Assembly (NCBI GenBank): GCA_031260805.1
Contig: JAISKV010000001.1
Coordinates: forward strand, 20,978-84,977
Length of the DNA: 64,000 bases
Direction: 5' to 3'
Origin: Rickettsiales bacterium
GTDB lineage: Bacteria; Pseudomonadota; Alphaproteobacteria; Rs-D84
The notes beneath the pieces were generated by a model. It made no database searches, had not been told where the DNA came from, and saw only the letters and a list, made by a program, of their open reading frames with translations. Of this stretch, positions 13,593 through 63,299 are shown one piece after another (within the stretch, counting starts at the first letter, position 1; each line of letters starts with the position of its first letter). The translations under genes and the position numbers were made by a program.

Positions 13593-14015
13593 TTAATTGC
13601 ACCAGCCGGCGCGACGGCCGCCGCTGTATTTCCGGGCCAGTTTTCTATCTATCATCACTTGTCCGACATCGGTGTTGTCCGCGGTTCTGACGCGCGCGTC
13701 GATGCGGCCCAGGTATTTGTCGTCCTTGATTTCGGACAGCATCACGGCGCCGCCCACTGGAATTAATTTTTCCAATTCATATTTTGCTTTCTGCGCCATT
13801 TTTATTTCCGCGTCGCACATTCCGTGAATTTCCGGCGCGTCAATATTTATAATCCGCACTCGCACTGAAATTTCCGCGCCGTTTTCCAATTTCACCCCGG
13901 CCGAGAAAGTATCCCCGTCAATGATATAGCCGACGGTTGCCTGCAATGGCGGCATGGCCGCCATTGCAGGCGCAATGAACAATGAACAGCAAATAATGAA
14001 TAATAATTTCTTCAT
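13593..14015 (-). CDS. thermonuclease (staphylococcal-nuclease-like) family protein, secreted
   Basis: Signal peptide MKKLLFIICCSLFIAPAMA. SNase fold motifs DGDTF and the catalytic region. Start trimmed to the ATG overlapping the tolB stop. Confidence 0.7.
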   Translation of the reverse strand: MKKLLFIICCSLFIAPAMAAMPPLQATVGYIIDGDTFSAGVKLENGAEISVRVRIINIDAPEIHGMCDAEIKMAQKAKYELEKLIPVGGAVMLSEIKDDKYLGRIDARVRTADNTDVGQVMIDRKLARKYSGGRRAGWCN

Positions 14016-15337
14016 GGCAGTCTGGGGGACCAAGTGGGCAGCGTGCCGCTGACCCCGTTCGGCAGTTTGATTTCGTAATCGTTCATGCCGTTGATATCCA
14101 CGCTGCGGATATGACTGGACCAATCTTTGGCCGTATCCTTTTCAGTTTCGTAATAAACGACGCGGCGCGATCCGGGCGCCCAACTGGGATTTTCCATAAA
14201 CCAGCCGGATGCCAATATTTTCTCGTTCTTGCCGCGCGGATTCATGATTCCAATATAAAAGGTATCGCTGCTGATTTTCGTGAACGCGATAAAGTTCCCA
14301 TCGGGCGACCAGGCCGGCGTCGCGTATCTGCCGTTTCCAAAAGACAATCTTTTTATTTCGCCGGTCGCTATGTTCAGGGTATGGATTTGCTGGCTGCCGG
14401 ACCGGTTGGAATTAAACGCTATGGTTTTGCCATCCGGCGAGTACGAAGGGCTGGTGTCAATAACATCGCCGCTGGTCAATTGCGTCAAATTCTTGGTTTC
14501 CGTATTGAATTCGTACAGGTTGGTCGCGCCGTTTTGCGACAAAGACAGCGCGATTTTCACGCCGTCCGGCGAATAAGCCGGCGCAAATGTCATGCCGTTG
14601 AATTTGCCGAGTTTATGCTGGGTCCCGCTGTCCAGATCTAATGCCCACACCATCGGGTCGTCGTCGCGGTAAGACAGGAACACCACCGTCTGCATGTTTG
14701 GCGAGAATTTTGGCGACATGACCATGTCCGCGCCGTTTGATATGTATTTCAGATTGAATCCGTCGCTGTCCATGATGGCCAGTTTTTTTGTGCGGTTCGT
14801 CATCTCGCCCGTTTCGGTTATGAATATTATCTGGGTGTCAAAGTATCCGATTTCCCCGGTCAGCCGCTCGTACACGGCATCCGCCAGAATATGGGCTAAG
14901 CGTCGTGCGGACTTTTTTGATGAAACCAGATTCTGCGCTTCTATCTGTTCTTTGCCCGGAATGTCCCAGACAAAGAATTCCAGTTTGTATTTGCCATCCG
15001 CAACGGCGGTCATCTTGGTCTGGACCAAGACCTGGGCTTTGATTGCCGTCCAATCGGCAAATGACGGCAGTTTGTCCATTTTTACTTTTTCCGGAAACGC
15101 GTCCTTGTTTATCATCCGGAACAATCCTGTTGATTGCAGATCGTTCACGATGACTTCGCGCAGGGCGGTCGCTTCTTTGCGCAGGCTGGACTGGTCCAAC
15201 TCAAATTCCTGGACCGCGACAGGTATCGGTTCGGTGTTTCCGGCGATGATATCCAGTTTCAATTCCGCGGATGCGGGATTGAAAAGCAAGAATTGAAAAG
15301 CGAAAAGCGAAAACAGGGTTAGTAATATTTTTTTCAT
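14012..15337 (-). CDS. tolB: Tol-Pal system periplasmic protein TolB
   Basis: Signal peptide, TolB N-terminal domain and C-terminal beta-propeller repeats. Start trimmed to MKKILLTLF. Confidence 0.85.
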   Translation of the reverse strand: MKKILLTLFSLFAFQFLLFNPASAELKLDIIAGNTEPIPVAVQEFELDQSSLRKEATALREVIVNDLQSTGLFRMINKDAFPEKVKMDKLPSFADWTAIKAQVLVQTKMTAVADGKYKLEFFVWDIPGKEQIEAQNLVSSKKSARRLAHILADAVYERLTGEIGYFDTQIIFITETGEMTNRTKKLAIMDSDGFNLKYISNGADMVMSPKFSPNMQTVVFLSYRDDDPMVWALDLDSGTQHKLGKFNGMTFAPAYSPDGVKIALSLSQNGATNLYEFNTETKNLTQLTSGDVIDTSPSYSPDGKTIAFNSNRSGSQQIHTLNIATGEIKRLSFGNGRYATPAWSPDGNFIAFTKISSDTFYIGIMNPRGKNEKILASGWFMENPSWAPGSRRVVYYETEKDTAKDWSSHIRSVDINGMNDYEIKLPNGVSGTLPTWSPRLP

Positions 15338-15447
15338 AAAAGTTCCTTCCGTTTGTGATTTTATACTCACAAGTTGTATTTTGCAATAAAAAACACTTTT
15401 ATTAAATATGCGATTTTGCTATAATGTGGGAAAGGTAAGGAAATAAT

Positions 15448-16173
15448 ATGAAAAAATACTTGTTTTTCGCTGTCTTGGCGTCTTTTATTGGATTGGAATC
15501 TTCCATGGCGGCAACGCCCGGAATGAATGTGCGGCCCGTGCAGCGGCAAAGCGCGGTCCAGTCAAATCGCCCGATGTATGTCGGCGCGCGCGTGGTTCAG
15601 AATTTTACAAATACGACGAATACTTATGAATTGAACGGAAATTCCAGTTATGATTTTGCGACGGATGAATTGTCGTTCAAGCCTATGACCGGCGGAAACA
15701 TGTTTCTGGGTGGCTGGATTGACGAAGACTGGCGGCTGGAAGGCGAACTGGGATACGCGGGCAAGTTGACGGACAAGGATGATTTTGCCGAATTTTCAGT
15801 ATCTGCGACATATTTGCAGGCGAACATAATTTACGATTTGACAACCGGCCAGTATGATGGATTTTACATCGGCGCGGGCGTGGGCCTGGCCCAGGTCCGG
15901 ACGGAAATGGACAGCGATTATTTTTTCAGCGCGGGCAAGACGAATGACAGATACTCGTTTGCCGGCGGAATTATGCTGGGATATACTCTGCCGTTATCGG
16001 AATTGTTCACATTGGATATCGGGTATAAGTTTCAGACATTTTCAGGCGGCGAAATCAATCGCACATTCAGCCATGCGGTTCCGGGGATGGCGGCGGTGAA
16101 CGACAAATTCACCAGCAAGACTGGATGGATGTTCAATCATGGACTGGGATTGGGGTTGCGGTATAATTTCTAG
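15448..16173 (+). CDS. outer-membrane beta-barrel protein (OmpA-like/opacity-family porin fold)
   Basis: Signal peptide. Alternating amphipathic beta-strands. C-terminal aromatic residue (…GLGLRYNF). Confidence 0.55.
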   Translation: MKKYLFFAVLASFIGLESSMAATPGMNVRPVQRQSAVQSNRPMYVGARVVQNFTNTTNTYELNGNSSYDFATDELSFKPMTGGNMFLGGWIDEDWRLEGELGYAGKLTDKDDFAEFSVSATYLQANIIYDLTTGQYDGFYIGAGVGLAQVRTEMDSDYFFSAGKTNDRYSFAGGIMLGYTLPLSELFTLDIGYKFQTFSGGEINRTFSHAVPGMAAVNDKFTSKTGWMFNHGLGLGLRYNF

Positions 16174-16223
16174 GTAATAATTTGGGGCGGTAAGAATAAA
16201 CTTGCGAGCGGAGAGAGATTGTA

Positions 16224-19200
16224 ATGACAAAATCAAAAGCATTGTTTTCAATAATTGGAATGTTGTTGGCGCTGCCCGCATTCGCGGCCCCGTCGGTGCG
16301 CATGCTGCCGCGGACTGGAACTCCGCTGCCTGACGCGGTCAAAGATTCCGGCGACAGCAGCGATGCAACCGTGCAGATTCAAGACGAAACGGATTCGGCA
16401 TCGCGCCCCAGCGGCGGCTATGTTCTGGGCGGCGGCAGTTCTGTGGCCGCGGGCCGGGCATCTTCAACGCGCGCATCATCGTCGCGTGCCGCAACTTCGG
16501 GCCAGGCGCGTTTGTCCGTGGGCAAGTTCTTGAACAACGCCGTGGCGAAAAAGACGCCTGGCGCGGTTATAACAACACCGGGCGCCAGCACTGAAAATAT
16601 GCGCGATTACGCGACGAATGAAGACTTGGCGGATGTCGGCCAGTTGATCCAGGATGTTGATGATGATCTGCATGACAATTATTATGACAAGTCAAATGTT
16701 GACTCGCAAATGGATGGCAAGGCGGACAAGTTGTTAAGCGGCGCGGCCGGAAACTTGCTGGAACTTTCCGCGGATGGAAATTACCGCGATTCCGGCCAGA
16801 CGATATCCAGCATTGCAGCGAATACGGCGACCAAGGCGAATTTGCTGGTGTCCGGATTTACGGCGGGCAATATCGCGACGATTGCGGCGGATGGAAATTA
16901 TCAGGACAGCGGGATTGATCCGGCGACACTGGCAACCAAGACCTATGTTGATTCTGCAATTGGCGACGCGGGCAGCAATTTGTCAGACGCGGTTTCCAAT
17001 ATTACGACCAGCATCGCGACCAAGGCCGATTTGGTTATTGGCGCGGCCGAAGATAATTTTGCATCATTGACGGCGACCGGGAATTTGGCTGACAGCGGAT
17101 TTTCTGCGGACAGTTTTGCGGGCCGCACTGCGACAATTGACGCGTTGGCAGTCAAGGCCGACAAGGTTGCGGGCGCCACCGGTGGAAATTTTGCCGGTCT
17201 GGATGCAAACGGAAATCTGACTGATTCAGGTAAAAAAGCGGCTGATTTTGTCGCCAAGAACAAAACTGTTACGACTGGTAATTTCGCGGCGGTGAACGCG
17301 GCCAGCGGGGAATTTACAGACAGTGGGTTCAAGGCTGGCGATTTCGCGACAGCGGCGCAAGGGTTGCTGGCGGTCAATGCGATTCCGCGCGTTACAAATC
17401 CGACAGCCGGGCATATTGTGAAATTGGATGCCAGCGGCAATCTGGTTGACGGCGGTACTTTGGGTTCAATGGCCGGCAAGAGCGGTGTTACTTCCGAAGA
17501 CATCAATGACGGCACGATCATGAATGTGGACATTTCGCCGATTGCGCAGATTGCGCGCGAAAAATTGTCCGACGGGGTCCAGGATTCATTGGCTTTGGCG
17601 GATAATTCGGTCCAGAAATCCACAAACGGCGTTGTGCCTGTGGAAAACAATCTGGCAATGTACGATGCCAGCGGCAATTTGACCGATTCCGGTGAAAGCG
17701 TTGCGACGCTGAAAGATTACACGGATGTTGCGGTTTATAACGAAGAACAGGCGCGGATTGCGGATGTTGATGCCGAAGAAGCGGCGCGGATTCTGGCAAT
17801 ATCAAATGAAGCGGCGGCACGGACCGCGGCGGATACGGCGCTATCAAATGCATTGGCCCAGGAAATTTCAGACAGAATCGCGGATGTGAATGCCGAAGAA
17901 GCGGCGCGGATTCTGGCCGTGTCAAATGAAGCGGCAACGCGAAGCGCGGCGGATACGGCCCTATCAAATGCATTGACCCAAGAAATTTCAGACAGAACGG
18001 CGGCGATTGCGGCCGAAGCGGCGGCGCGTACCGCTGCGGACACAACACTGTCAAACGCGCTGGCCCAGGAAATTTCCGACAGAACGCTTGCGATTTCTAA
18101 TGAAGTATCGGCGCGAAGTGCGGCGGATACCGCGCTCTCGAACGCGCTGACCGCGGCGATTGCCCAGGAAGTGGTTGACAGAAACACTGCAATTCTGAAC
18201 GATGCAGTTCAGACGGTGGTGCTGGCATCTGGCACGGCCGAAGGCACATTGAAAATAACAGTTGATGGCGCGACCACGGATAATGTCTCGGTCAAGGATT
18301 GGGCGAAAGTCGCGCATAAAATGGAAACTTATCCGGCCGGCCATGCGGATGCGATCGTTATCCGCGACACAAACGGGGATGTTATTGCATCCGGCACCAA
18401 TCTGGCGGATATCGCGGACGCCATTGCAAATGCTGTCCAGAATGTCGCTTTTGCAACCGGGTCAACCGGCGGTTCGTTGAAAATCACAGTGAACGGCGTT
18501 GACAAGGAAGCGACTGTCAAGGATTGGGATACCAAGGCTGATAAAGTTATTTCGGCGACAAATAATAACTTTGCAGGATTGAATGCGGCCGGAAATCTGA
18601 CAGATTCTGGCAAGAATGCGACCAGTTTTATTGCGAATGCGGCCAGCGCGGTCTTGAACAGCCATATTGCGGACGATGCGGTCCAGACCGGCAAGATAAA
18701 AGACTTGAATATAACAACGAACAAATTGGCCGACAGCGCGGTTACCAGCATAAAAATCGCCGATGGAACAATTGCGACGGTTGATATTTCCGATGGCGCT
18801 ATTACATTACCGAAGATAAACGCGACCGCGTACGATACTGCGGTTACATCCGCGTCTGCAAAACTGATTACCAGTGGCGGCGTGTACACTGCAATTCAGG
18901 ACAGCGCGGTTCAGACGGCGGTTTTGGCATCCGGAACAAATTCCGGCACGATGAAACTAACCGTGGATGGCGTCGCGACGGACAATGTCGCTGTTACCGG
19001 ATGGGGGACCAAGGCGGACAAGGCCGTGCCGACAACCGCGAACAATATCGCGATATTGGATTCAATCGGGAATTACAAGGACAGCGGGACTTCGCTGGCG
19101 GATATCGCTGCGTCTATCGCGACTGCGATTAACAGCACGCTGGACAGCGGAAATGTTTCAATAACAACAGGAACCAGCAACGGATATGTCAAACTGACAG

Positions 19201-20195
19201 TCAACGGAACTCCGCAAGAGGCCGAGGTCAAGGGGATAAACACAGCGGCATACCAGCCGTCCAGCGCGTTTATCGCGAATGCAGCGAATGCGGTCTTGAA
19301 CAGCCATATCAATGCAGCCGCGGTTGATTCTGCCAAGTTGGCGACCGATTCGGTTATAACGGCCAAGATTATGAACGCAGCGGTGACGGTGGATAAAATG
19401 GCGGCCAGTTCCGTCGGATCCGCGCAGATTATTGACGGTTCAATTGCTACTGCGGATCTGGGCGCGGGCGTTGTTACTAATGCGAAACTGGCGGCGAATT
19501 CGGTTGCTTCGTCCAATATCATTGATGGATCGGTTGACGAAGTTGACTTGGCTGCGAACAGCGTGACCAGCGCGAAGATAGCGAACGGCAACATAACATT
19601 TGCAAAAATGGCGACCGGCGCGGTTGATGCGACGCTGACCGCGGCATCTGACAAGTTGCCGACATCAGCGGCGGTTTCCAATGCATTGACTGCGGCGGTT
19701 TCCGCGGCGGTCAGCTCGACGACATACTCTGCCGGAAATGGAATTGACATAACATCCAATGTTATCAAGGCGATTGCGGACGCGACGGGCGGACTGTCTG
19801 TGGCGGCTGCCGGGATGAAAATCGCGGACAGCGGCGTTACGACGGCGCGGATAAATAATGCTGCGGTGACGGCTGACAAACTGGCGGCGGATTCAGTCAT
19901 AACGAACAAATTGGCCGACAGCGCGGTTACCAGCATAAAAATCGCCGATGGAACAATTGCGACGGTTGATATTTCCGATGGCGCTATTACCAGTGCAAAA
20001 ATACTGGATGGAACGATTGCGGCGGCTGATTTGGGTCCGAACAGCGTTATAACCGCAAAAATCGCCGACAGCAATGTTACCAAGGTTAAATTGGAAACTT
20101 CGGTCCAAACGACATTGGATTGGGTTGGAACAATACCTGTGGGCGCGCCGGGCGGAACCCCGTCGGCGGGACGCGCATTCATCTGGATAGAATAA
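16224..20195 (+). CDS. giant secreted fibre/adhesin-like protein with phage-tail-fibre-like repeats
   Basis: 1323 aa with a signal peptide. Ala/Ser-rich region. About 35-aa repeats ending in (D/T)DSG. Four coiled-coil units AAARTAADTALSNALAQEISDR. Many 11-residue xxAVTxxKIADG repeats. Confidence 0.6.
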   Translation: MTKSKALFSIIGMLLALPAFAAPSVRMLPRTGTPLPDAVKDSGDSSDATVQIQDETDSASRPSGGYVLGGGSSVAAGRASSTRASSSRAATSGQARLSVGKFLNNAVAKKTPGAVITTPGASTENMRDYATNEDLADVGQLIQDVDDDLHDNYYDKSNVDSQMDGKADKLLSGAAGNLLELSADGNYRDSGQTISSIAANTATKANLLVSGFTAGNIATIAADGNYQDSGIDPATLATKTYVDSAIGDAGSNLSDAVSNITTSIATKADLVIGAAEDNFASLTATGNLADSGFSADSFAGRTATIDALAVKADKVAGATGGNFAGLDANGNLTDSGKKAADFVAKNKTVTTGNFAAVNAASGEFTDSGFKAGDFATAAQGLLAVNAIPRVTNPTAGHIVKLDASGNLVDGGTLGSMAGKSGVTSEDINDGTIMNVDISPIAQIAREKLSDGVQDSLALADNSVQKSTNGVVPVENNLAMYDASGNLTDSGESVATLKDYTDVAVYNEEQARIADVDAEEAARILAISNEAAARTAADTALSNALAQEISDRIADVNAEEAARILAVSNEAATRSAADTALSNALTQEISDRTAAIAAEAAARTAADTTLSNALAQEISDRTLAISNEVSARSAADTALSNALTAAIAQEVVDRNTAILNDAVQTVVLASGTAEGTLKITVDGATTDNVSVKDWAKVAHKMETYPAGHADAIVIRDTNGDVIASGTNLADIADAIANAVQNVAFATGSTGGSLKITVNGVDKEATVKDWDTKADKVISATNNNFAGLNAAGNLTDSGKNATSFIANAASAVLNSHIADDAVQTGKIKDLNITTNKLADSAVTSIKIADGTIATVDISDGAITLPKINATAYDTAVTSASAKLITSGGVYTAIQDSAVQTAVLASGTNSGTMKLTVDGVATDNVAVTGWGTKADKAVPTTANNIAILDSIGNYKDSGTSLADIAASIATAINSTLDSGNVSITTGTSNGYVKLTVNGTPQEAEVKGINTAAYQPSSAFIANAANAVLNSHINAAAVDSAKLATDSVITAKIMNAAVTVDKMAASSVGSAQIIDGSIATADLGAGVVTNAKLAANSVASSNIIDGSVDEVDLAANSVTSAKIANGNITFAKMATGAVDATLTAASDKLPTSAAVSNALTAAVSAAVSSTTYSAGNGIDITSNVIKAIADATGGLSVAAAGMKIADSGVTTARINNAAVTADKLAADSVITNKLADSAVTSIKIADGTIATVDISDGAITSAKILDGTIAAADLGPNSVITAKIADSNVTKVKLETSVQTTLDWVGTIPVGAPGGTPSAGRAFIWIE

Positions 20196-20220
20196 AAAAT
20201 GCGCCGCAGGCGCATTTTTT
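20196..20220 (+). terminator. rho-independent terminator after giant fibre gene
   Basis: AAAAAATGCGCCGCAGGCGCATTTTTT. Confidence 0.75.
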
Positions 20221-20256
20221 AGTTTTCAGAGTTCAGAGTGCAGAGTTCAGTTTTTG

Positions 20257-20322
20257 CCACTACCCCGTCGCGCTGCGCGCGCCACCCCTTCGCTGGCGAA
20301 TGGGCGGCGGCGGGGTAGTGGT
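20257..20322. repeat. GC-rich palindromic element CCACTACCCCGTCGCGCTGCGCGCGCCACCCCTTCGCTGG ... CGGGGTAGTGG
   Basis: Same motif recurs at 60117-60313; flanked by CAGAGTTCAG and AACTAATAACTAATA tandem words. Confidence 0.75.
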
Positions 20323-20357
20323 ATAACAACTAATAACTAATAACTAATAATTCATAA

Positions 20358-20687
20358 CTATTTCAGCAGTTCTTCAATACGGGCCGCGCGTTCCAGCGTG
20401 TCGTCGTACACAAACCGCAGGTCCGGAGTATACCGCTGATTCATTCGCGCCGCCAATTCATACCGCACTGCGCCTGTGATTCCATCAAGTCTTTTCTGCA
20501 TCGCTTCGCTGTTGCCCGCGGGCGCGTAGTAAAATAGTTTCACGAATTGCAGGCCGCCCGATGATTTCGCGTCCACGATGGTTATCACGATGTCGCCGTA
20601 TAAATCGCGCAGAATTTCCGCAACCAGAGTTCTGATTTTGGATTCTACTTTTTGCGGCCGTGAAGAATTTATATTTGCGTGCTTCAT
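20358..20687 (-). CDS. rbfA: ribosome-binding factor A
   Basis: RbfA KH-like fold; conserved YTPDLRFVYD C-terminal region; start trimmed to MKHANI. Confidence 0.8.
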   Translation of the reverse strand: MKHANINSSRPQKVESKIRTLVAEILRDLYGDIVITIVDAKSSGGLQFVKLFYYAPAGNSEAMQKRLDGITGAVRYELAARMNQRYTPDLRFVYDDTLERAARIEELLK

Positions 20688-25417: not shown

Positions 25418-26410
25418 ATGAGTCATCAGTTCTTCTTTTCACCGTACATATTGGATAATCTGGTGGCGCCGGCGGCCGGATTCAGCGTGTTCCAGGATAT
25501 TGCCCAGCCGAAACTGAAAATTTACATAACCGCGCGCGGCGTGCGGACTTTCTTTACGCGCAAGCGCGTGCACGGCCGGGACCAGCGGATAATTCTGGGC
25601 AATTATCCGGAAACAGACATTGAAACGGCGCGGGGAATTCTGGGCGATGCGATTGCGGCGCGGTGCGCGCCGATTCAGAAGAAAAATGCCGCGATTAGTG
25701 TCGGCGCGCTGATTAAAATCTGGATTCGCGATAAAATTAAGTCCAAGTCCAAAACTCTGCGCGCGACAACACGGCACTTTGGCAAAATATGGACCAAGCG
25801 GCTGAGCGCAATAACCGCGGACGAACTGGGCGAGATTATCCGCAGCATCGCTGAATCCGCCGGGCCGGCAATCGCGTGCCGGATGCGCTGCGCCGCGGTC
25901 AGTTTTTTCAAGCATGCGGTGCAACTGGGATACCTGGAAAAAAATCCGGCCGCGGGGATTCCCAGGATTGCGGCCCAGCCGCGGCATAAAAACAGGCTCA
26001 GTTGGACGGCATTGTCAAAACTGGTCCGCGCGATACGGTCTGAACAGGACGAAAATACGCGGCGCGCGTTTTTAATGCTGGTTTACGGATTTGCAAATCG
26101 GTCGCGGATTTTTTCAATGCGTTGGTCGGACATAGATTTTAACCAGTACGCATGGCATGACGGGCTGCTGTCCGATCCGGCCATAGATTTAATCCAGGAA
26201 ATGTCCCAGGATTTCGTATGGCTGTTTCCGGGGCGCGGCCGCCGGCATCTGACGGATCCGCGCGGGGCGTGGCGGCGGATTGTGAAAAATGCGGGCTTGC
26301 GCGAAATCCAAATGAATGATGTTTACAAGTTTCTGAAATCAAAACTTCCGAAAACCGGCGATATTTATGAATTGCGCGCCGCGAAAAACGATATCTTGAC
26401 AAAAATTTGA
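25418..26410 (+). CDS. phage-type tyrosine integrase-like protein, probably truncated/degenerate
   Basis: N-terminal P4-type arm-binding domain (KLKIYITARGVRTFFTRKRV). SAM-like core-binding domain. Only the start of the catalytic domain (FLMLVYGFANRSRIFSMRWSDID). No clear HxxR...Y tail. 330 aa. Confidence 0.5.
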   Translation: MSHQFFFSPYILDNLVAPAAGFSVFQDIAQPKLKIYITARGVRTFFTRKRVHGRDQRIILGNYPETDIETARGILGDAIAARCAPIQKKNAAISVGALIKIWIRDKIKSKSKTLRATTRHFGKIWTKRLSAITADELGEIIRSIAESAGPAIACRMRCAAVSFFKHAVQLGYLEKNPAAGIPRIAAQPRHKNRLSWTALSKLVRAIRSEQDENTRRAFLMLVYGFANRSRIFSMRWSDIDFNQYAWHDGLLSDPAIDLIQEMSQDFVWLFPGRGRRHLTDPRGAWRRIVKNAGLREIQMNDVYKFLKSKLPKTGDIYELRAAKNDILTKI

Positions 26411-29262: not shown

Positions 29263-30108
29263 ATGAAGAAAATAATCTTAACATCATTGTTCGCGGCCGT
29301 TGCTGTTTCCGCAGCAAATGCAGGCGTTATTGACAACAACCCGTTGTATCGTCCGAATGGCGGACACTTTTACAGCGTGACCGACCTGGCGACCGACACG
29401 GCGTGGGAAGGCTGGGGTCTGGGCGAAGAATTCGGATACGGCATCAATGACAAATTGTCTGTCATTGCGACAACAAAACTGTCCGCGTATTTTCCGGAAT
29501 CCGATCTGTATGGCAACAACAATTATGCGTGGGATAATTTCGGTCTGAAATTAAACTATCGTGTGCTGGATGACAAAAACATCAAGGCCGATGTTTACGG
29601 CGGCGTTGCGCAGAACTATGCGACAACCGGCGGTGAAACCAAAAACGGCAAATTCCACTATAAAAACTTTGACGATCTGGAAACGACTTCTTATGATTGG
29701 ACGGTCGGCGCGCGCGCTGGTTATACAACCAAAGAATTCACGATCGCGGGCTTGGTTGAGTACACATACAGCAAAGACGATATTGGCACGGATGTTGACA
29801 GCGGCAAATGGACATTTGGCTTGAACGGCCAGTATGTCATTGACACCAACTGGAACATCACTGGCGGCGCGTCATATGCGCTGACGATGCTGGGTGATGA
29901 CAATCCGGCGAAGATCTGGGCGAACGCTCATGTAGTGAATGCGTATGTCGGCGCGAACTATAACATTGACGATTACAAATTCGTCGGCGTTTATGTTGCG
30001 CAGAATTGGGGCAAGGCATCAACGGGCAACAGTTCCACGACAATCAGCAGTGATTGGGAAATTGCTGATGAAACGATCATCGGTGCGAAGTTCGGAATTG
30101 ACTTCTAA
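29263..30108 (+). CDS. outer-membrane beta-barrel protein (porin-like)
   Basis: Signal peptide MKKIILTSLFAAVAVSAANA; alternating beta strands; C-terminal GAKFGIDF. Confidence 0.5.
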   Translation: MKKIILTSLFAAVAVSAANAGVIDNNPLYRPNGGHFYSVTDLATDTAWEGWGLGEEFGYGINDKLSVIATTKLSAYFPESDLYGNNNYAWDNFGLKLNYRVLDDKNIKADVYGGVAQNYATTGGETKNGKFHYKNFDDLETTSYDWTVGARAGYTTKEFTIAGLVEYTYSKDDIGTDVDSGKWTFGLNGQYVIDTNWNITGGASYALTMLGDDNPAKIWANAHVVNAYVGANYNIDDYKFVGVYVAQNWGKASTGNSSTTISSDWEIADETIIGAKFGIDF

Positions 30109-60116: not shown

Positions 60117-60313
60117 ACCACTACCCCGTCGCGCTGCGCGCGCCACCCCTTCCCGGGCCCCGCGAAAAACAAAGTTTTTCGTGGGTGGATCCCAGCGAAG
60201 GGGATTTTGATGGCCTGCATCACATAATAAAATGATATTTATTGAAACGAAGTCGGGATAATCCCCTTCGCTGGCGAAGGGGTGGCGCGCGCAGCGCGAC
60301 GGGGTAGTGGTAG
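60117..60313. repeat. long palindromic element with CCACTACCCCGTCGCGCTGCGCGCGCCACCCCTTC arms (same family as 20257-20322)
   Basis: Left arm 60117-60165, right arm about 60262-60313, about 100-nt loop. Followed by an AATTAAGAA-word palindrome (about 60310-60420). Confidence 0.75.
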
Positions 60314-60590: not shown

Positions 60591-63299
60591 TTGAGAAAAA
60601 TGCGCATTTTTTGTATGGCTGCGCTGGCCGCATGTTTTGCGTTGCCCGCAGTTTCCGCATCGCGGCCGGGCGTTGCGCCTGATGCTGCGGCCCAGGGGTC
60701 GGCGGCAGTGGCGCGTCGCGGCGGCACAATGCCTATGGCGGTTTCCGATGGCGGCGCGAATGCCGCGCGGGCAGGGGCATTGCGCGCGACGCCGAATGCG
60801 CCTGCCGCGCCGACTGTCGTGGCGCGCGCCGGGGCGACACAAAAGGTTGTCGGCACCGGCGTCAAGGTTAATGCCGCGGTTCAGAACAGTGTTGTCGGTG
60901 GCGAATGCCGAGAAAAATATTTCGGCTGCATGGACAGTTTCTGCATGATTGAAAACGACAACGGCGGCCGGTGCATTTGTTCTTCACGCAAGTCTGAATT
61001 GGACAAGGTTCTGGCTGAAATTGAAAAACTGGACGACCAGACTTTCAAGCTGGCGACCAAGGGCGTTGAAAAGATTGAAATGGGCGCGAATGCCGACTAT
61101 ATCTTCAAGACGGCCGAGGCGGCCGAAAAGGACGCGCTGGGCGAATCCGAACTGGAAAAAAACAAGAACAAAATTCGTCCGACTAAAAAGTTGGACATGA
61201 GCATGTGGACCGCTTACGAGGTGGAAGAACTTGAAATCCCGTCTGATGGAATTTCAGACAAATCCGGAAACGCGCGCTTGGTCGCGGCGCATGATTTATG
61301 CCAGCGATCCATCGGCAACGACTGCTCGGTCCAGGATTTCAACATGGTTCAGACGATGTATCAGACGAATGTGCAATCCGACTGCCGCGCGTATGAAAAT
61401 TATCTGAAACAAAAGAAAAACGAATCGTCGCAAAAACTGTCAACGGCGCAGAGCGCGGTGCGCGAGGCTGCACTGGCATCTTTTGAGAATGCGAACAAGT
61501 ACAATTTGGGCGAATGCAGCATTGAAATGAAAAAGTGCATGGCGAAAACCGCCGGGTGCAAGGATGACTTTACCGGGTGCGTGGGGCTGGCCGCGGCGGA
61601 AAACATCAAGCGCGGCAAGGCCAAGACTTATGACATCAAGGGCACAACGACCAAGGTTACGATAAACGCCAGCACTTACGACACCATGCTGGCGAAAAAG
61701 CCGCTGTGCTTTGACACCGTGGTATCGCAGTGCATCGCGGTGCGCGATCAGGTGTGGGATGTGTTTTTGCGCGACATCGCGCCGACATTGAAAAGCGCGG
61801 AATTGGTGGCGGAATCAGACTTGCGCATGAACTGCATCAGCAATATTTCCAACTGTTTCCAAAAGGCGTGCAAAGACAACATGGATCCTGCGAATCCCGA
61901 AGGATCGTACGACATGTGCCTTTCGCGGCCGCAGACATTGGAAAGCGTCTGCAAAATCCAGATTGATCCGTGCAAACAGGCCGAGCCGCAGATTCTGAAC
62001 TTTGTCAAGGCGCGCGTCGCGGCGATGCGCGTGGACGCCTGCACGACCCAGGTTAAAAACTGCTATACCGCAGATACCGTTTGCGGCAAGAATTTCGAGA
62101 ACTGCATCGGGCTGGATCGCGATGCGATAATTGACATGTGCCCGGCGGAAAAACTGACCGCGTGCGTGCATACCAACGGCAATCCGGTGAAAGCGGGGGA
62201 TAAGATTTCCACTATCACGGGCCTGACTGATATGATTCAGGGGATCTACTTGTCAATTGACAATGCCGCGCTGGCGCAGTGCCAAAAAATCGCCAATGAC
62301 AAAATGATTGAGATTTGCGGCGACACCGCGTCGTGCGGGGCGTTCTCGGATGATTCAACGATGGGTACGGATTCGCTGTACGCCGCAAAGAACAGTTCCG
62401 GAAACTATGTAATCAGCGGGCTGATGAATTTCGGCAGCATCACGACTGCTAAGGACAATCAGACGAATGATGACGGACGCGTCCAGTTCGCGTCGGAAAA
62501 ATTAAGTTATACAACTTGCGCGACCGATACGGCGGCCAAGAATCGCATAGAGGCATCGTTTAATACAATCAAGAATAAAACAGACAATCTGATTTCAATG
62601 CTGTCGTCGGATACCCAGCTGGGATACTGCTTGAACGGACGCAGCATGCGGCAGATTTCCGGCGCGGATTCAATGACGGCGACCGCGCGGTTCCCGAACC
62701 TGATTGATACCTATATGAAGGTTATTTTGGATGCCGGATTGACCAAGGCATCTGAAAATTATGATAAAAAGTTGAAAGAATTGGCGACCAAGGCGACGGA
62801 AAATCAAAGCGACGACATGAACGCGGCGATGTGCGCGGCGATGGCCAGCGATCGCGACAACTTGATTAATGTGTTTTCCGGAACCGGTGGAAATGACAAA
62901 TCAGATTCCAATTCCGGATTTTGCGGCACGGCGTCAATAACAATCAGCGGCGCTAGATTGACAGATTTGGCCAAGGCGGTATCCGGGGCGGACAAGGAAA
63001 TCTTGTTGCTGGGCACAAAAGGCGAGATGATCGCCAAGCAGCAGTACACCAGCATTTATTCGCGCGAATCAAACACATGCAAAATCAAAACTACGACCAT
63101 AGCGTGCAAAAGCACCGAAGCGCAGTATGATACCAGCAGCAGTTGCGGCAGCGGCGGAATAACGCTTATTGGCAGCGCATGCGGCGGCGGCCTGTTGAAA
63201 ATCGGGGGCAGCAAGAAAACGAGCACGCGGACATTCGCCGGCGTGATCTGCAAAGAGTTTGAGGCGCCGATAGAATCAGAGCAGACAATAGCGATGTGA
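60591..63299 (+). CDS. large secreted cysteine-rich protein (902 aa), unknown function
   Basis: Signal peptide. Ala-rich low-complexity segment. Then about 60 Cys in recurring CxnC spacings (e.g. CREKYFGCMDSFCMIENDNGGRCIC). No catalytic motifs recognised. Confidence 0.6.
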   Translation: MRKMRIFCMAALAACFALPAVSASRPGVAPDAAAQGSAAVARRGGTMPMAVSDGGANAARAGALRATPNAPAAPTVVARAGATQKVVGTGVKVNAAVQNSVVGGECREKYFGCMDSFCMIENDNGGRCICSSRKSELDKVLAEIEKLDDQTFKLATKGVEKIEMGANADYIFKTAEAAEKDALGESELEKNKNKIRPTKKLDMSMWTAYEVEELEIPSDGISDKSGNARLVAAHDLCQRSIGNDCSVQDFNMVQTMYQTNVQSDCRAYENYLKQKKNESSQKLSTAQSAVREAALASFENANKYNLGECSIEMKKCMAKTAGCKDDFTGCVGLAAAENIKRGKAKTYDIKGTTTKVTINASTYDTMLAKKPLCFDTVVSQCIAVRDQVWDVFLRDIAPTLKSAELVAESDLRMNCISNISNCFQKACKDNMDPANPEGSYDMCLSRPQTLESVCKIQIDPCKQAEPQILNFVKARVAAMRVDACTTQVKNCYTADTVCGKNFENCIGLDRDAIIDMCPAEKLTACVHTNGNPVKAGDKISTITGLTDMIQGIYLSIDNAALAQCQKIANDKMIEICGDTASCGAFSDDSTMGTDSLYAAKNSSGNYVISGLMNFGSITTAKDNQTNDDGRVQFASEKLSYTTCATDTAAKNRIEASFNTIKNKTDNLISMLSSDTQLGYCLNGRSMRQISGADSMTATARFPNLIDTYMKVILDAGLTKASENYDKKLKELATKATENQSDDMNAAMCAAMASDRDNLINVFSGTGGNDKSDSNSGFCGTASITISGARLTDLAKAVSGADKEILLLGTKGEMIAKQQYTSIYSRESNTCKIKTTTIACKSTEAQYDTSSSCGSGGITLIGSACGGGLLKIGGSKKTSTRTFAGVICKEFEAPIESEQTIAM

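What the first reader, a model, noticed from the sequence alone, without database searches (positions are those of the whole stretch)
16224..20195. Chromosomal 1323-aa secreted fibre protein with phage-tail-fibre-like 11-residue repeats, next to tolB and an outer-membrane beta-barrel gene
Behind a signal peptide and a Ser/Ala-rich stretch, the protein has three repeat systems. First, about ten units ending in the (D/T)DSG motif. Second, four near-identical 22-aa coiled-coil units. Third, long runs of xxAVTxxKIADG-type 11-mers (SAVTSIKIADGTIATVDISDGAIT...). The 11-mers are repeated almost verbatim at 18721-18800 and 19900-19980 as internal DNA duplications. This architecture resembles phage tail-fibre or host-recognition proteins and trimeric fibrous adhesins. 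The gene is preceded by an outer-membrane beta-barrel gene (15448-16173) and has its own terminator. Internal near-identical DNA repeats make it a candidate for recombinational length variation.
Basis: partly seen in the sequence, partly recalled or inferred. Interest (0 to 1): 0.55.

Follow-up and report, generated by a model that had tools for sequence, protein, structure and literature searches.

The report
Secreted fibre built from phage parts
A gut alphaproteobacterium with a probably reduced genome keeps a 4-kb gene for an exported fibre protein whose long shaft is built from phage tail-fibre modules; its two ends mark it as a very long member of an undescribed fibre family that is almost always encoded right after a small outer-membrane barrel gene, so it is a candidate tool for attaching to a partner cell or host.

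Summary
The ORF is real: 16224-20195, 1323 aa, with an RBS, a Sec signal peptide and its own terminator. The repeats exist, but two periods were misread. The "11-mers" are decapeptides (24 units). The coiled-coil units are 40 and 29 aa, not 22. There are nine DSG units. The 90-nt duplication is exact, and the copies lie 1185 nt (395 codons) apart, in frame.

The shaft modules match phage tail-fibre families (PHROG E~1e-21; cyanophage and actinophage tail proteins). The gene is not phage-borne: its neighbours are housekeeping genes.

Both termini belong to an unannotated cellular family:
- The family has 423 clusters at 50% identity, 119-1095 aa long.
- After the signal peptide comes a roughly 100-aa tether, predicted disordered, with A-x-S-V-R and R-L-S-x-G-K-Y/F-L motifs. 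Then come a variable shaft and a short C-terminal cap.
- In 32 of 34 informative loci the family gene follows a ~240-aa PF13505 outer-membrane barrel gene.
- The tether motif pattern found nothing in 2.9 million viral contigs.

The closest labelled relatives are Candidatus Enterousia MAGs (order Rs-D84 according to the literature). These have reduced genomes and a suspected partner-dependent lifestyle.

Best reading: a surface fibre or adhesin tethered by its N-terminus, functionally analogous to Bdellovibrio MAT fibres. Trimer state, surface exposure and the barrel's role are inferred, not shown.

The parts
15448..16173 (+). Gene for a 241-aa outer-membrane beta-barrel (signal peptide, C-terminal ...GLRYNF). 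It is the first gene of the cassette and ends 50 nt before the fibre gene.
   Evidence: PF13505 OMP_b-brl at E 7e-8. Orthologues at 29-35% identity lie immediately upstream of the fibre-family gene in 32 of 34 informative loci.
16140..16167 (+). Promoter-like site (TGGACT-16-TATAAT) inside the 3' end of the OMP gene. It may be an internal promoter for the fibre gene.
   Evidence: Consensus scan, 10 of 12 positions. This is a pattern match only.
16210..16217 (+). Shine-Dalgarno sequence GGAGAGAG, 6 nt before the ATG.
   Evidence: Read directly from the sequence.
16224..20195 (+). Fibre gene, 1323 codons plus stop.
   Evidence: ORF list. Identical to the NCBI MAG protein LBO08_00220, annotated as hypothetical.
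16224..16286 (+). Sec-type signal peptide, aa 1-21; predicted cleavage AFA|APSVR.
   Evidence: Hydrophobicity of 2.61 against at most 1.9 for nearly all phage-like relatives. The cleavage position is conserved in family alignments A1 and A3.
16287..16598 (+). N-terminal tether module, aa 22-125. It is S/A/G/T-rich, with the motif A-P-S-V-R-M-L at the mature N-terminus.
   Evidence: Alignments A1, A3 and A4 have invariant V25, R26, R96, S98 and G100. A profile built without this sequence scores aa 1-135 at 36 bits. AlphaFold2 with a 51-sequence alignment gives pLDDT 41-57 and no secondary structure.
16506..16532 (+). Family signature motif A-R-L-S-V-G-K-F-L, aa 95-103.
   Evidence: R(L/M)S(I/L/V)G is present in 148 of 150 family representatives. 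BLASTP against P0151 gives E 2e-7.
16617..16682 (+). First confidently predicted helix, aa 132-153; start of the shaft.
   Evidence: AlphaFold2 pLDDT 78-91.
16719..17723 (+). Array of seven 'KADK..GN(L/F)......GNLxDSG' units, aa 166-500.
   Evidence: Motif listing. phrog_31688 matches seven stretches at E 1e-20. Up to 94 of 119 relatives match here. One unit is 82% identical to a segment of a Faecalibacterium phage protein.
17736..18188 (+). Ala-rich segment free of Pro and Gly, aa 505-655. Two 40-aa and two 29-aa repeats; presumed coiled coil.
   Evidence: TRF periods of 120 and 87 nt. Autocorrelation peaks at 40 and 29. No P or G in 151 aa.
18189..19283 (+). Mixed region, aa 656-1020. It holds four ~32-aa 'AVQTVVLASGT..LKITVDG' modules, two further DSG units (cores at aa 790 and 949) and the first decapeptide run.
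18672..18821 (+). Decapeptide repeat run 1, aa 817-866, 5 units.
   Evidence: Period 10.
18716..18805 (+). Exact 90-nt direct repeat, copy 1 (aa 831-861).
   Evidence: 100% identity with flanks at ~30%.
19314..19631 (+). Decapeptide repeat run 2, aa 1031-1136, about 10.5 units.
   Evidence: phrog_892 tail fibre best stretch at aa 1070-1137.
19818..20099 (+). Decapeptide repeat run 3, aa 1199-1292, about 9 units.
   Evidence: phrog_28766 tail fibre best stretch at aa 1183-1299. tblastn hits to cyanophage tail fibres.
19901..19990 (+). Exact 90-nt direct repeat, copy 2 (aa 1226-1256); 1185 nt from copy 1.
20127..20192 (+). C-terminal cap G-T-I-P-V-G-A-P-G-G-T-P-S-A-G-R-A-F-I-W-I-E, aa 1302-1323.
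   Evidence: The same I-P-x-G...A-x-I-W-(I/V)-(E/Q) ending occurs in P0151 and P0155, which also carry the N-module. It also ends the last gene of the fibre clusters in L083, L084 and L085.
20194..20221 (+). Intrinsic terminator hairpin with A-run and T-run. It could act in both directions between the convergent fibre and rbfA genes.
   Evidence: Fold -16.9 kcal/mol, z -4.4; none of 200 shuffles folded as well.

Best explanation
The gene encodes a Sec-exported fibrous protein of a gut alphaproteobacterium. NCBI labels the MAG Rickettsiales, but its nearest labelled relatives are Candidatus Enterousia MAGs (order Rs-D84 according to the literature).

It is a divergent and exceptionally long member of an undescribed cellular protein family. 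The family layout is: signal peptide; a ~100-aa low-complexity tether, predicted disordered, carrying short conserved motifs (A-x-S-V-R at the mature N-terminus, R-L-S-x-G-K-Y/F-L about 70 residues later); a shaft of free length and composition; and a short C-terminal cap.

In this member the ~1150-aa shaft is assembled from module types otherwise found in phage tail fibres: nine DSG units, a coiled coil of 40- and 29-aa repeats, four small beta-type modules and 24 decapeptide units.

Proposed mechanism:
1. The protein crosses the inner membrane through Sec. This is inferred from the sequence.
2. The N-terminal tether fixes it to the envelope, most likely through the ~240-aa beta-barrel encoded just upstream. 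This is inferred from gene linkage.
3. The shaft oligomerises, probably as a trimer as phage fibres do, and projects from the cell. This is inferred.
4. The fibre serves attachment to a partner cell, host surface or particle. This would suit the partner-dependent lifestyle proposed for the reduced-genome Rs-D84 lineage.

Module exchange with phage fibres and recombination between internal repeats would diversify the shaft. The exact 90-nt copies sit 395 codons apart, in frame.
For: Gene and export signals:
- ORF, RBS, signal peptide and terminator are all present.

Shaft modules are of phage tail-fibre type:
- PHROG tail-fibre hits at E ~1e-21.
- 74 phage records match the C-terminal 304 aa, including annotated tail fibres and minor tail proteins.
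- The best 119 database relatives match only the DSG units and the decapeptide runs.

The gene is cellular, not phage-borne:
- Neighbours are dnaN, tolB, rbfA, ftsEX and lepA.
- GC3 of 0.58 lies within the host range of 0.54-0.69.
- 118 of 119 phage-like relatives lack a signal peptide.
- The tether motif pattern found 0 of 2.9 M viral contigs, against 23 true members in metagenome contigs.

Family membership:
- The profile search finds 423 clusters at E<=1e-3. The match is always at the N-terminus, and lengths run from 119 to 1095 aa.
- A profile built without this sequence scores aa 1-135 at 36 bits.
- P0151 (201 aa) matches both ends of the protein: N-terminus E 2e-7, C-terminus E 0.003.

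OMP linkage:
- The OMP gene lies directly upstream in the window and in L001, L004, L006, L010, L012, L083, L085, L086, L088 and L089.
- It also lies upstream in 21 of 21 metagenome loci that have enough upstream DNA.
- The linkage holds although the flanking genes are rearranged: tolB here, ftsE-pal elsewhere.

Tether:
- It is predicted disordered.

Lifestyle context:
- Rs-D84/Enterousia genomes are under 1 Mb, lack many biosynthetic pathways and flagella, and a partner-dependent life has been proposed (PMC12306168).

Precedent:
- Bdellovibrio MAT fibres have a signal peptide, a conserved N-terminal domain and chimeric phage-like trimeric fibres on the cell surface (PMC10769870).
Against: - No route across the outer membrane is identified. 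There is no autotransporter, TPS or usher signature, and the barrel is of a small type that is unlikely to be a channel.
- Two more distant loci (L081, L084) carry N-module genes without an OMP gene upstream, so the barrel may not be obligatory.
- Membership through the N-module is weak for this particular protein. The 36 bits correspond to roughly E 6e-4 if scaled to the whole library. The full-length protein is not detected by the independent profile because of composition correction, and the family's second motif is missing.
- Trimerisation is untested. The monomer AlphaFold2 model of aa 655-1323 had pLDDT 36.
- The C-terminal cap is too small to be a receptor-binding domain, so the binding site, if there is one, is unknown.
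- No expression, localisation or polymorphism data exist.
Confidence: 0.6

Rival explanations
1. A split or inverse type-V-like display system. The co-encoded barrel is assembled around, or together with, the disordered N-terminal tether. The tether ends up spanning the outer membrane and the fibre is displayed outside. This would be a new fibre secretion and anchoring route, not mere docking to a pre-existing OMP.
For: - The barrel-to-fibre gene order is strictly conserved, with 50-80-nt spacing, in 32 of 34 loci.
- The tether is ~100 aa, predicted disordered, and carries short conserved Arg-containing motifs.
- No other secretion signature is found in the protein.
- From general knowledge: type Ve inverse autotransporters have an N-terminal barrel with a C-terminal passenger, and the RcsF linker has been reported threaded through OMP barrels.
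Against: - The barrel (219 mature residues, PF13505) belongs to a family of small, probably 8-stranded, barrels without a usable lumen.
- L081 and L084 have the tether gene without the barrel gene.
- Paralogous fibres in the same clusters lack the tether altogether.
- Nothing here tests a physical interaction.
Confidence: 0.15
2. A periplasmic or envelope-spanning structural tether, in the manner of an Lpp-like spacer, linked to the Tol-Pal/division neighbourhood. It would not be an external fibre.
For: - Only a Sec signal is present, and no OM translocation signature.
- Neighbours are tolB here, and pal (OmpA-domain) and ftsEX in relatives.
- Minimal family members are ~200 aa: tether, short coiled coil and cap.
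Against: - Shaft length ranges from about 50 to 1150 aa. Content is hypervariable and includes collagen-like and phage receptor-fibre modules.
- Several paralogues occur per cluster.
- A 1323-aa fibre would not fit a periplasm.
- This degree of diversification is typical of exposed surfaces.
Confidence: 0.1
3. A leftover or domesticated structural tail-fibre gene of a prophage, tailocin or gene-transfer agent. It would act on particles rather than on the cell.
For: - PHROG tail-fibre matches and phage tblastn hits.
- A weak match of the decapeptide region to PDB 9eg4 'orf16' (E 0.034).
- A degenerate integrase-like ORF lies 5 kb away at 25418-26410.
Against: - The protein has a signal peptide and a cellular N-module that found no match in viral contigs.
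- There are no capsid, tail, baseplate or lysis genes nearby, only conserved housekeeping genes on both sides.
- The cassette sits at the same chromosomal neighbourhood in related genomes.
- Base composition is host-like.
Confidence: 0.05
4. Assembly artefact: the ORF is a mis-joined collapse or expansion of repeats from one or more genes in the metagenome.
For: - The sequence comes from a MAG, and only one contig carries this protein.
- The gene contains exact 90-nt and near-identical 120-nt repeats.
Against: - The reading frame is uninterrupted over 3972 nt, with a matching RBS and terminator.
- Both termini are the two ends of one known architecture, as in P0151 and P0155.
- GC3 is uniform along the gene.
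- The exact repeat is 90 nt. I assume this is shorter than typical short reads and therefore resolvable; I did not check the read length.
Confidence: 0.05

Closest known systems
Bdellovibrio bacteriovorus MAT (mosaic adhesive trimer) fibres (PMC10769870)
   Same: - Chromosomal and not part of a prophage.
- A signal peptide is followed directly by a family-conserved N-terminal region.
- The shaft is long and chimeric, with phage tail-fibre ancestry, and the content is variable.
- Several paralogues occur per genome, at least in relatives of this organism.
- The proposed role is recognition of other cells.
- The envelope anchor is unknown in both cases.
   Different: - The MAT N-terminal part is described as a ~130-aa beta-rich folded domain. 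Here it is a ~100-aa low-complexity tether, predicted disordered, with short motifs.
- No sequence match to any solved MAT fragment in the PDB.
- No S74 chaperone-protease domain and no elaborate tip domain; only a 22-aa cap.
- A conserved partner barrel gene lies upstream.
- The organism belongs to a different phylum-level lineage and habitat.
Phage tail fibres and minor tail proteins (PHROG 892, 28766, 2012; T7-like cyanophage tail fibres; Gordonia/Rhodococcus phage minor tail proteins)
   Same: - Shared DSG units, decapeptide 'AVTxxKIAD' runs and ExxARxxAD-type coiled-coil repeats.
- Mosaic modular build.
   Different: - It has a Sec signal peptide and a cellular N-terminal module in place of a virion-attachment domain.
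- It is encoded between housekeeping genes.
- The N-module pattern found nothing in 2.9 M viral contigs.
Trimeric autotransporter adhesins (type Vc; YadA, BadA, etc.)
   Same: - Sec-dependent, repetitive fibrous surface protein with a coiled-coil stalk.
- Associated with an outer-membrane beta-barrel.
   Different: - No C-terminal YadA-type anchor and no head or neck motifs.
- The barrel is a separate gene upstream.
- The conserved anchor-like end is N-terminal.
Omp25/Omp31/Adr/Opa-type small OM beta-barrels (PF13505), for the neighbouring gene
   Same: - PF13505 match at E 7e-8, a weak Rickettsia Adr subfamily hit, and a terminal aromatic residue.
   Different: - The match to the Adr model is far below its cut-off (25 against 210 bits).
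- The conserved pairing with a fibre gene is, to my knowledge, not a described property of that family.
T4 fibritin foldon, as an analogue of the family's commoner C-terminal cap
   Same: - Many family members end in a pattern resembling the foldon sequence as I recall it: '..P....G.Y(V/I)L.....G...W..(V/I)..'.
   Different: - A profile of these caps finds no fibritin or foldon chain in the PDB.
- The window protein has the other cap type (IPVG...IWIE).

Membership tests
Trimeric autotransporter adhesin (type Vc secretion) | C-terminal YadA-type membrane anchor (four-strand beta segment, PF03895) | tested here: not met
   The Pfam scan of the whole protein at E<=1 returns only a spurious HA2_N match. 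The C-terminus is a 22-aa IPVG...IWIE cap.
Trimeric autotransporter adhesin (type Vc secretion) | YadA-like head, neck or stalk repeats (PF05658, PF05662) | tested here: not met
   No Pfam or NCBIfam hit.
Trimeric autotransporter adhesin (type Vc secretion) | N-terminal Sec signal peptide | tested here: met
   Typical n-, h- and c-regions with AFA|AP. There was no dedicated predictor, so this rests on a heuristic plus conservation in alignments A1 and A3.
Phage tail fibre (virion structural protein) | Sequence similarity to tail-fibre families | tested here: met
   phrog_892 at 4.6e-21 and phrog_28766 at 8.1e-21. tblastn hits to annotated tail fibres.
Phage tail fibre (virion structural protein) | Encoded within a phage, prophage or tailocin morphogenesis module | tested here: not met
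   Neighbours are tolB, an OMP gene, rbfA, a dedA-like gene, ftsEX and lepA. No structural phage genes were seen among the ORFs examined in the window.
Phage tail fibre (virion structural protein) | Cytoplasmic assembly (no export signal) and an N-terminal virion-attachment domain | tested here: not met
   A signal peptide is present, whereas 118 of 119 phage-like relatives lack one. The N-terminal module found no match in viral contigs.
Bdellovibrio MAT superfamily | Signal peptide followed by a family-conserved N-terminal region, then a chimeric fibre | tested here: met
   The architecture is shown. This is a match at the level of layout only.
Bdellovibrio MAT superfamily | Homology of the ~130-aa beta-rich N-terminal domain | not testable with these tools
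   No MAT N-domain sequence or model was available. The N-module here is predicted disordered, which argues against identity.
Bdellovibrio MAT superfamily | Similarity to solved MAT shaft or tip fragments, or an S74 chaperone-protease domain | tested here: not met
   No PDB sequence match at E<=1. No Peptidase_S74 hit in Pfam.
N-module ('SVR / RLSxGKY') fibre family of Enterousia-like Alphaproteobacteria (defined here) | Signal peptide with A-x-S-V-(R/K) at the mature N-terminus | tested here: met
   The protein has AFA|APSVRML. V25 and R26 are invariant in A1, A3 and A4. 128 of 150 representatives have the motif.
N-module ('SVR / RLSxGKY') fibre family of Enterousia-like Alphaproteobacteria (defined here) | R-(L/M)-S-(I/L/V)-G-K/H-Y/F-L motif ~70 residues after the cleavage site | tested here: met
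   ARLSVGKFL at aa 95-103. 148 of 150 representatives have the motif.
N-module ('SVR / RLSxGKY') fibre family of Enterousia-like Alphaproteobacteria (defined here) | Significant match to a family profile built without the query | tested here: inconclusive
   aa 1-135 score 36.1 bits (E 3e-13 for one target, about 6e-4 if scaled to the library size). The full-length protein is not reported because of composition correction. The middle motif (A-R-A-G-S-x-R-V) is absent.
N-module ('SVR / RLSxGKY') fibre family of Enterousia-like Alphaproteobacteria (defined here) | Gene immediately downstream of a ~240-aa PF13505-type barrel gene | tested here: met
   The window OMP gene ends 50 nt upstream. The same arrangement holds in 32 of 34 informative loci.
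N-module ('SVR / RLSxGKY') fibre family of Enterousia-like Alphaproteobacteria (defined here) | Short conserved C-terminal cap | tested here: met
   The IPVG...IWIE ending is shared with P0151 and P0155, which have the same N-module, and with the last genes of the clusters in L083, L084 and L085. This is the rarer of two cap types: 0 of the 150 top representatives have it.
PF13505 small OM beta-barrel (neighbouring gene 15448-16173) | Pfam match above the gathering score, a signal peptide and a terminal aromatic residue | tested here: met
   33.3 bits against a cut-off of 28.7. The protein ends ...RYNF.

The most novel reading that the evidence does not exclude
The barrel-plus-fibre cassette is a previously unrecognised fibre display system of the reduced-genome gut Alphaproteobacteria around Candidatus Enterousia (order Rs-D84). 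A dedicated small outer-membrane barrel captures or co-assembles with a disordered N-terminal tether. This exposes fibres of freely exchangeable, phage-derived content, which the cells use to recognise and hold the partner organisms they depend on. It would be a cellular counterpart of phage host recognition with its own anchoring mechanism.
Probability: 0.2. Interest if true: 0.75.

Novelty: new variant of a known kind. Interest (0 to 1): 0.52.

Why it matters
Candidatus Enterousia and the wider order Rs-D84 are reported to have genomes under about 1 Mb. They are reported to lack most biosynthetic pathways and flagella, and to depend possibly on partner organisms (PMC12306168). How they would contact a partner is unknown.

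It encodes exported fibres, and their shafts swap modules with phage receptor-binding fibres. That makes it a concrete, testable candidate for the attachment apparatus.

The window's gene is the longest version seen here. It takes 4 kb in what may be a reduced genome, like those of its closest relatives.

The finding also:
- adds a second, independent case, after Bdellovibrio MAT fibres, of bacteria using phage-fibre architecture for their own cell-cell recognition;
- defines an unannotated family of 423 clusters with a distinctive N-terminal tether and a partner barrel;
- raises an open question about how such fibres are anchored or cross the outer membrane.

If the fibre turns out to be an ordinary adhesin docked to an OMP, the interest is moderate and mainly a matter of annotation.

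Tried and rejected
1. Pfam and NCBIfam on the full protein gave nothing. The only hit, HA2_N (E 0.15, aa 326-342), is a chance match of a 29-position model to a DSG unit. The same accession is precomputed on many phage relatives.
2. PDB sequence searches of the whole protein and three segments gave only 9eg4_H 'orf16' (E 0.034, decapeptide region) and an irrelevant PTS protein.
3. AlphaFold2 on aa 655-1323 without an alignment gave mean pLDDT 36, which is unusable. I therefore ran no fold search.
4. AlphaFold2 on aa 1-160 with 51 family sequences showed the tether unstructured and only helix 132-153 confident.
5. I first thought the gene was a fusion of the first cluster gene (N-module) with the last cluster gene (IWVE end). 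I dropped this after finding short single proteins, P0151 and P0155, with both ends.
6. The foldon homology of the commoner family cap is not supported by a profile search of the PDB.
7. An exact-sequence look-up of the protein's contig found nothing on record.
8. A large MAFFT job of 73 long hits failed.
9. Alignment A5 was too variable for a metagenome locus scan. I replaced it with a degenerate DNA pattern for P-R-L-S-I-G-K-Y-L-x-G.
10. The PADLOC hit PD-Lambda-5_A (E 5e-5) covers only decapeptide repeats, so I treated it as repeat similarity.
11. No paralogue of the fibre or the barrel occurs elsewhere in the window.
12. A first BLAST without composition correction gave meaningless full-length coverage and was discarded.

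Full report
**1. The observation**

The window holds one uninterrupted ORF at 16224..20195 (+), 1323 aa. A GGAGAGAG box lies 6 nt before the ATG. Right after the stop codon there is a hairpin flanked by A- and T-runs, with -16.9 kcal/mol, z -4.4, and none of 200 shuffles folding as well. The first 21 residues look like a Sec signal peptide (MTKSK-ALFSIIGMLLALPAFA|APS). Among the 119 best database relatives only one has a comparable N-terminus.

The gene upstream (15448-16173) is a PF13505 outer-membrane beta-barrel. tolB (14012-15370, minus strand) diverges from it.

The repeat systems are real, but two periods were misread.

- The "11-mers" are decapeptides. Autocorrelation peaks fall at 10/20/30/40, and 24 units align in a 10-residue register with consensus D-G-A-V-T-T-A-K-I-A. 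They form three runs: aa 817-866, 1031-1136 and 1199-1292.
- The coiled-coil segment (aa 505-655) has no Pro or Gly and is 30% Ala. It consists of two 40-aa units (120 nt, 88% identical) and two 29-aa units.
- There are nine "KADK..GN(L/F)......GNLxDSG" units.
- There are four ~32-aa "AVQTVVLASGT..LKITVDG....V..W" modules.
- The internal duplication is an exact 90-nt copy, 18716-18805 = 19901-19990. The flanks are at the random identity level. The spacing is 1185 nt = 395 codons, so recombination between the copies would stay in frame.

**2. What the shaft is**

Pfam and NCBIfam are silent. PHROGs give tail-fibre families:

- phrog_892, E 4.6e-21
- phrog_28766, E 8.1e-21
- a minor-tail family
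- an unnamed family that matches seven DSG units

The only full-length database match is the identical NCBI entry [quoted passage not shown]. All other hits cover at most 39% of the query. They match only the DSG units and the decapeptide runs. They look like phage fibres: no signal peptide, collagen repeats, and Phage_fiber_2, Phage-tail_3 and CBM_5_12 domains.

tblastn against deposited phages finds 74 records for the C-terminal 304 aa. They include T7-like cyanophage tail fibres, Gordonia and Rhodococcus phage minor tail proteins, and a host-specificity protein J. One DSG unit is 82% identical to a segment of Faecalibacterium phage FP_Toutatis.

No solved structure matches, apart from a weak hit of the decapeptides to 9eg4 "orf16". 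A monomer AlphaFold2 model of aa 655-1323 was unusable (pLDDT 36).

**3. The gene is cellular**

The neighbours are housekeeping genes: uvrC, an asmA-like gene, dnaN, a plsC-like gene, tolB, rbfA, a dedA-like gene, ftsEX, lepA, fabF, a YceG-family (mltG-like) gene, secY and rpoA. GC3 of the fibre gene (0.58) and of each of its parts lies within the range of these genes (0.54-0.69).

A TolB-based scan of one genome per species finds the closest labelled relatives at 61-65% identity. They are Candidatus Enterousia and unnamed gut and termite Alphaproteobacteria MAGs.

**4. The termini identify a family**

In those relatives an orthologue of the barrel (29-34% identity, alignment A2) is followed by one to four genes for signal-peptide fibre proteins. 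The first of these shares an N-terminal module with the window protein (A1):

- a conserved signal-peptide cleavage region;
- A-(A/S/P)-S-V-R at the mature N-terminus;
- about 70 S/T/A/G-rich residues;
- (P/A)-R-L-S-(I/L/V)-G-(K/H)-(Y/F)-L.

A profile of 16 such N-termini was searched against 1.84 billion representative proteins. It finds 423 clusters at E<=1e-3 and 358 at E<=1e-10. The match is always at residues 1 to ~200, and lengths run from 119 to 1095 aa with a median of 496. Of the top 150:

- 148 have the RLSxG motif;
- 128 have the SVR motif;
- 109 end in a "..VLGTD..G..VWYEI"-type cap;
- 28 contain collagen-like runs;
- only 3 contain DSG units.

None of the 35 hits from the word-indexed search carries a Pfam domain.

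The window protein is a divergent member.

- A profile built without it scores aa 1-135 at 36 bits. That is E 3e-13 for a single target, about 6e-4 if scaled to the library size. The full-length protein escapes detection because of composition correction.
- Its closest N-terminal relatives form a subgroup (AAPSV(R/K)MLG ... ARLS(V/L)GKY(I/L)H). Two of these, P0151 (201 aa) and P0155 (211 aa), also end in the window protein's own cap, I-P-V-G-...-W-(I/V)-(E/Q).
- BLASTP of P0151 against the two ends gives E 2e-7 and E 0.003.
- The same cap ends the last gene of the fibre clusters in L083, L084 and L085.

So the 1323-aa protein has the architecture of a 200-aa family member, with about 1150 aa of phage-type shaft between the tether and the cap. 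It is longer than any of the 150 best representatives.

**5. Linkage to the barrel**

The barrel gene lies directly upstream (50-80 nt) of the N-module gene in the window and in L001, L004, L006, L010, L012, L083, L085, L086, L088 and L089. Two more distant loci, L081 and L084, lack it.

A degenerate DNA pattern for P-R-L-S-I-G-K-Y-L-x-G found 25 metagenome contigs. Of these, 23 are true members. In all 21 that have at least 500 nt of upstream DNA, the upstream 1.5 kb encodes a homologue of the window's barrel at 25-35% identity. The same pattern found nothing in 2.9 million viral contigs.

The pair stays together although its surroundings differ. In the relatives it is flanked by ftsX-ftsE-pal on one side and by dedA-rbfA-lepA on the other. 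In the window it is flanked by tolB and by rbfA.

AlphaFold2 on aa 1-160 with a 51-sequence alignment predicts no structure for the tether (pLDDT 41-57). It predicts a confident helix only from aa 132, where the shaft starts.

**6. Most likely mechanism**

Shown by sequence and comparison:

- the export signal;
- a family-conserved tether, predicted disordered, with short linear motifs;
- a shaft of phage-type modules;
- a short cap;
- a conserved operon-like pairing with a small OM barrel;
- a cellular rather than viral distribution.

Inferred:

- The tether fixes the fibre to the envelope through the barrel.
- The shaft oligomerises, probably as a trimer, by analogy with the phage proteins that share its modules.
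- The fibre is exposed and mediates attachment.

The literature describes Enterousia and the order Rs-D84 as bacteria with genomes under about 1 Mb. They lack amino-acid, nucleotide and lipid biosynthesis and flagella, and are possibly partner-dependent (PMC12306168). In such an organism a conserved, diversifying fibre cassette is a plausible attachment device.

The closest functional precedent is the Bdellovibrio MAT superfamily. Its members have a signal peptide, a conserved N-terminal domain and chimeric phage-like trimeric fibres on the predator surface. Their anchor is still unknown (PMC10769870).

What remains unexplained is how a Sec substrate without an autotransporter, TPS or usher signature reaches the surface. 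A small PF13505-type barrel is unlikely to be a channel.

**7. Rivals**

- A split or inverse type-V-like co-assembly of barrel and tether. This is attractive but untested.
- A periplasmic spacer linked to Tol-Pal. The neighbourhood and the minimal members fit. The hypervariable shafts of up to 1150 aa do not.
- A prophage, tailocin or GTA remnant. The signal peptide, the synteny and the absence of phage genes argue against it.
- Mis-assembly. This is unlikely for the gene as a whole, because both ends belong to one architecture and the frame, RBS and terminator are intact. Repeat copy numbers still need read-level confirmation.

**8. Novelty and score**

Bacterial chromosomal fibres built on phage-fibre architecture are known (MAT), and fibrous adhesins are common. 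The window protein is annotated only as hypothetical, and none of the family members checked carries a Pfam domain.

To my knowledge three features are undescribed:

- the N-terminal tether family;
- its near-obligate pairing with a dedicated small barrel;
- this extreme member, loaded with gut-phage-type modules.

I rate it a new variant of a known kind, of moderate interest (0.52). It is not a categorically new system on present evidence. It does give a concrete handle on partner attachment in a poorly understood reduced-genome gut lineage, and it poses an open anchoring problem.

Noticed in passing
window 20257-20321 and 60118-60310: A GC-rich palindromic element with 15-nt arms CCACTACCCCGNCGC. 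There are 4 arm matches against 0.36 expected. The copy after the fibre gene folds at -50 kcal/mol (z -5.3). The second copy has ~38-nt terminal inverted repeats around ~115 nt and lies upstream of ORF 60591-63299. It looks like a REP- or MITE-like repeat.
   Followed up: partly
window 20225-20250 and 20324-20360: Two heptanucleotide tandem arrays, TTCAGAG x3.7 and TAATAAC x5.3, lie in the intergenic region between the convergent fibre and rbfA genes.
   Followed up: no
window 60591-63299: A 902-aa ORF without any Pfam match. It has a signal peptide and an A/G/R-rich N-terminal ~90 aa with 'ARAGALR' and 'VARAGAT' motifs, which recall the middle motif of the fibre-family tether. A large Cys-rich domain follows. 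In L081 a Cys-rich 495-aa secreted protein lies two genes after the N-module gene.
   Followed up: partly
window 29263-30108: A 281-aa ORF with a signal peptide and a terminal ...KFGIDF, probably another outer-membrane beta-barrel. Only sub-threshold Pfam hits were found: Autotransporter beta-domain at E 0.006 and DUF6588.
   Followed up: partly
window 25418-26410: A 330-aa ORF directly after lepA with three sub-threshold integrase domains (Arm-DNA-bind_3, Phage_int_M, and a partial Phage_integrase). It is probably a decayed tyrosine integrase. No tRNA gene lies nearby; the only tRNA in the window is tRNA-Phe at 873-948.
   Followed up: partly
L006 18836-20674; L010 17223-20219; L012 13943-14998; L085 6647-9747; L084 6785-11264: In relatives the cassette holds up to seven tandem fibre genes. 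The later ones lack the tether and start, right after the signal peptide, with an 'IASKGYVD' or 'ATAGYVKGAYN' motif. Many end in a Cys-x(4-12)-Cys-V-L...W cap, and the last ends in IPVGS...IW(V/I)(E/Q). It is open whether these assemble with the tethered first protein or stand alone.
   Followed up: partly
window 17154-17252 (aa 311-343): One DSG unit (KADKVAGATGGNFAGLDANGNLTDSGKKAADFV) is 82% identical to segments of Faecalibacterium phage FP_Toutatis and a human-faecal phage contig. This suggests a gut-phage pool for these modules.
   Followed up: no
window 19629-19973 (aa 1136-1250): A weak match (E 0.034) of the decapeptide region to PDB chain 9eg4_H, 'orf16', 269 aa, which carries the same AVTxxKLAxD repeats. 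The entry was not identified further. It may offer the first structural template for this repeat.
   Followed up: no
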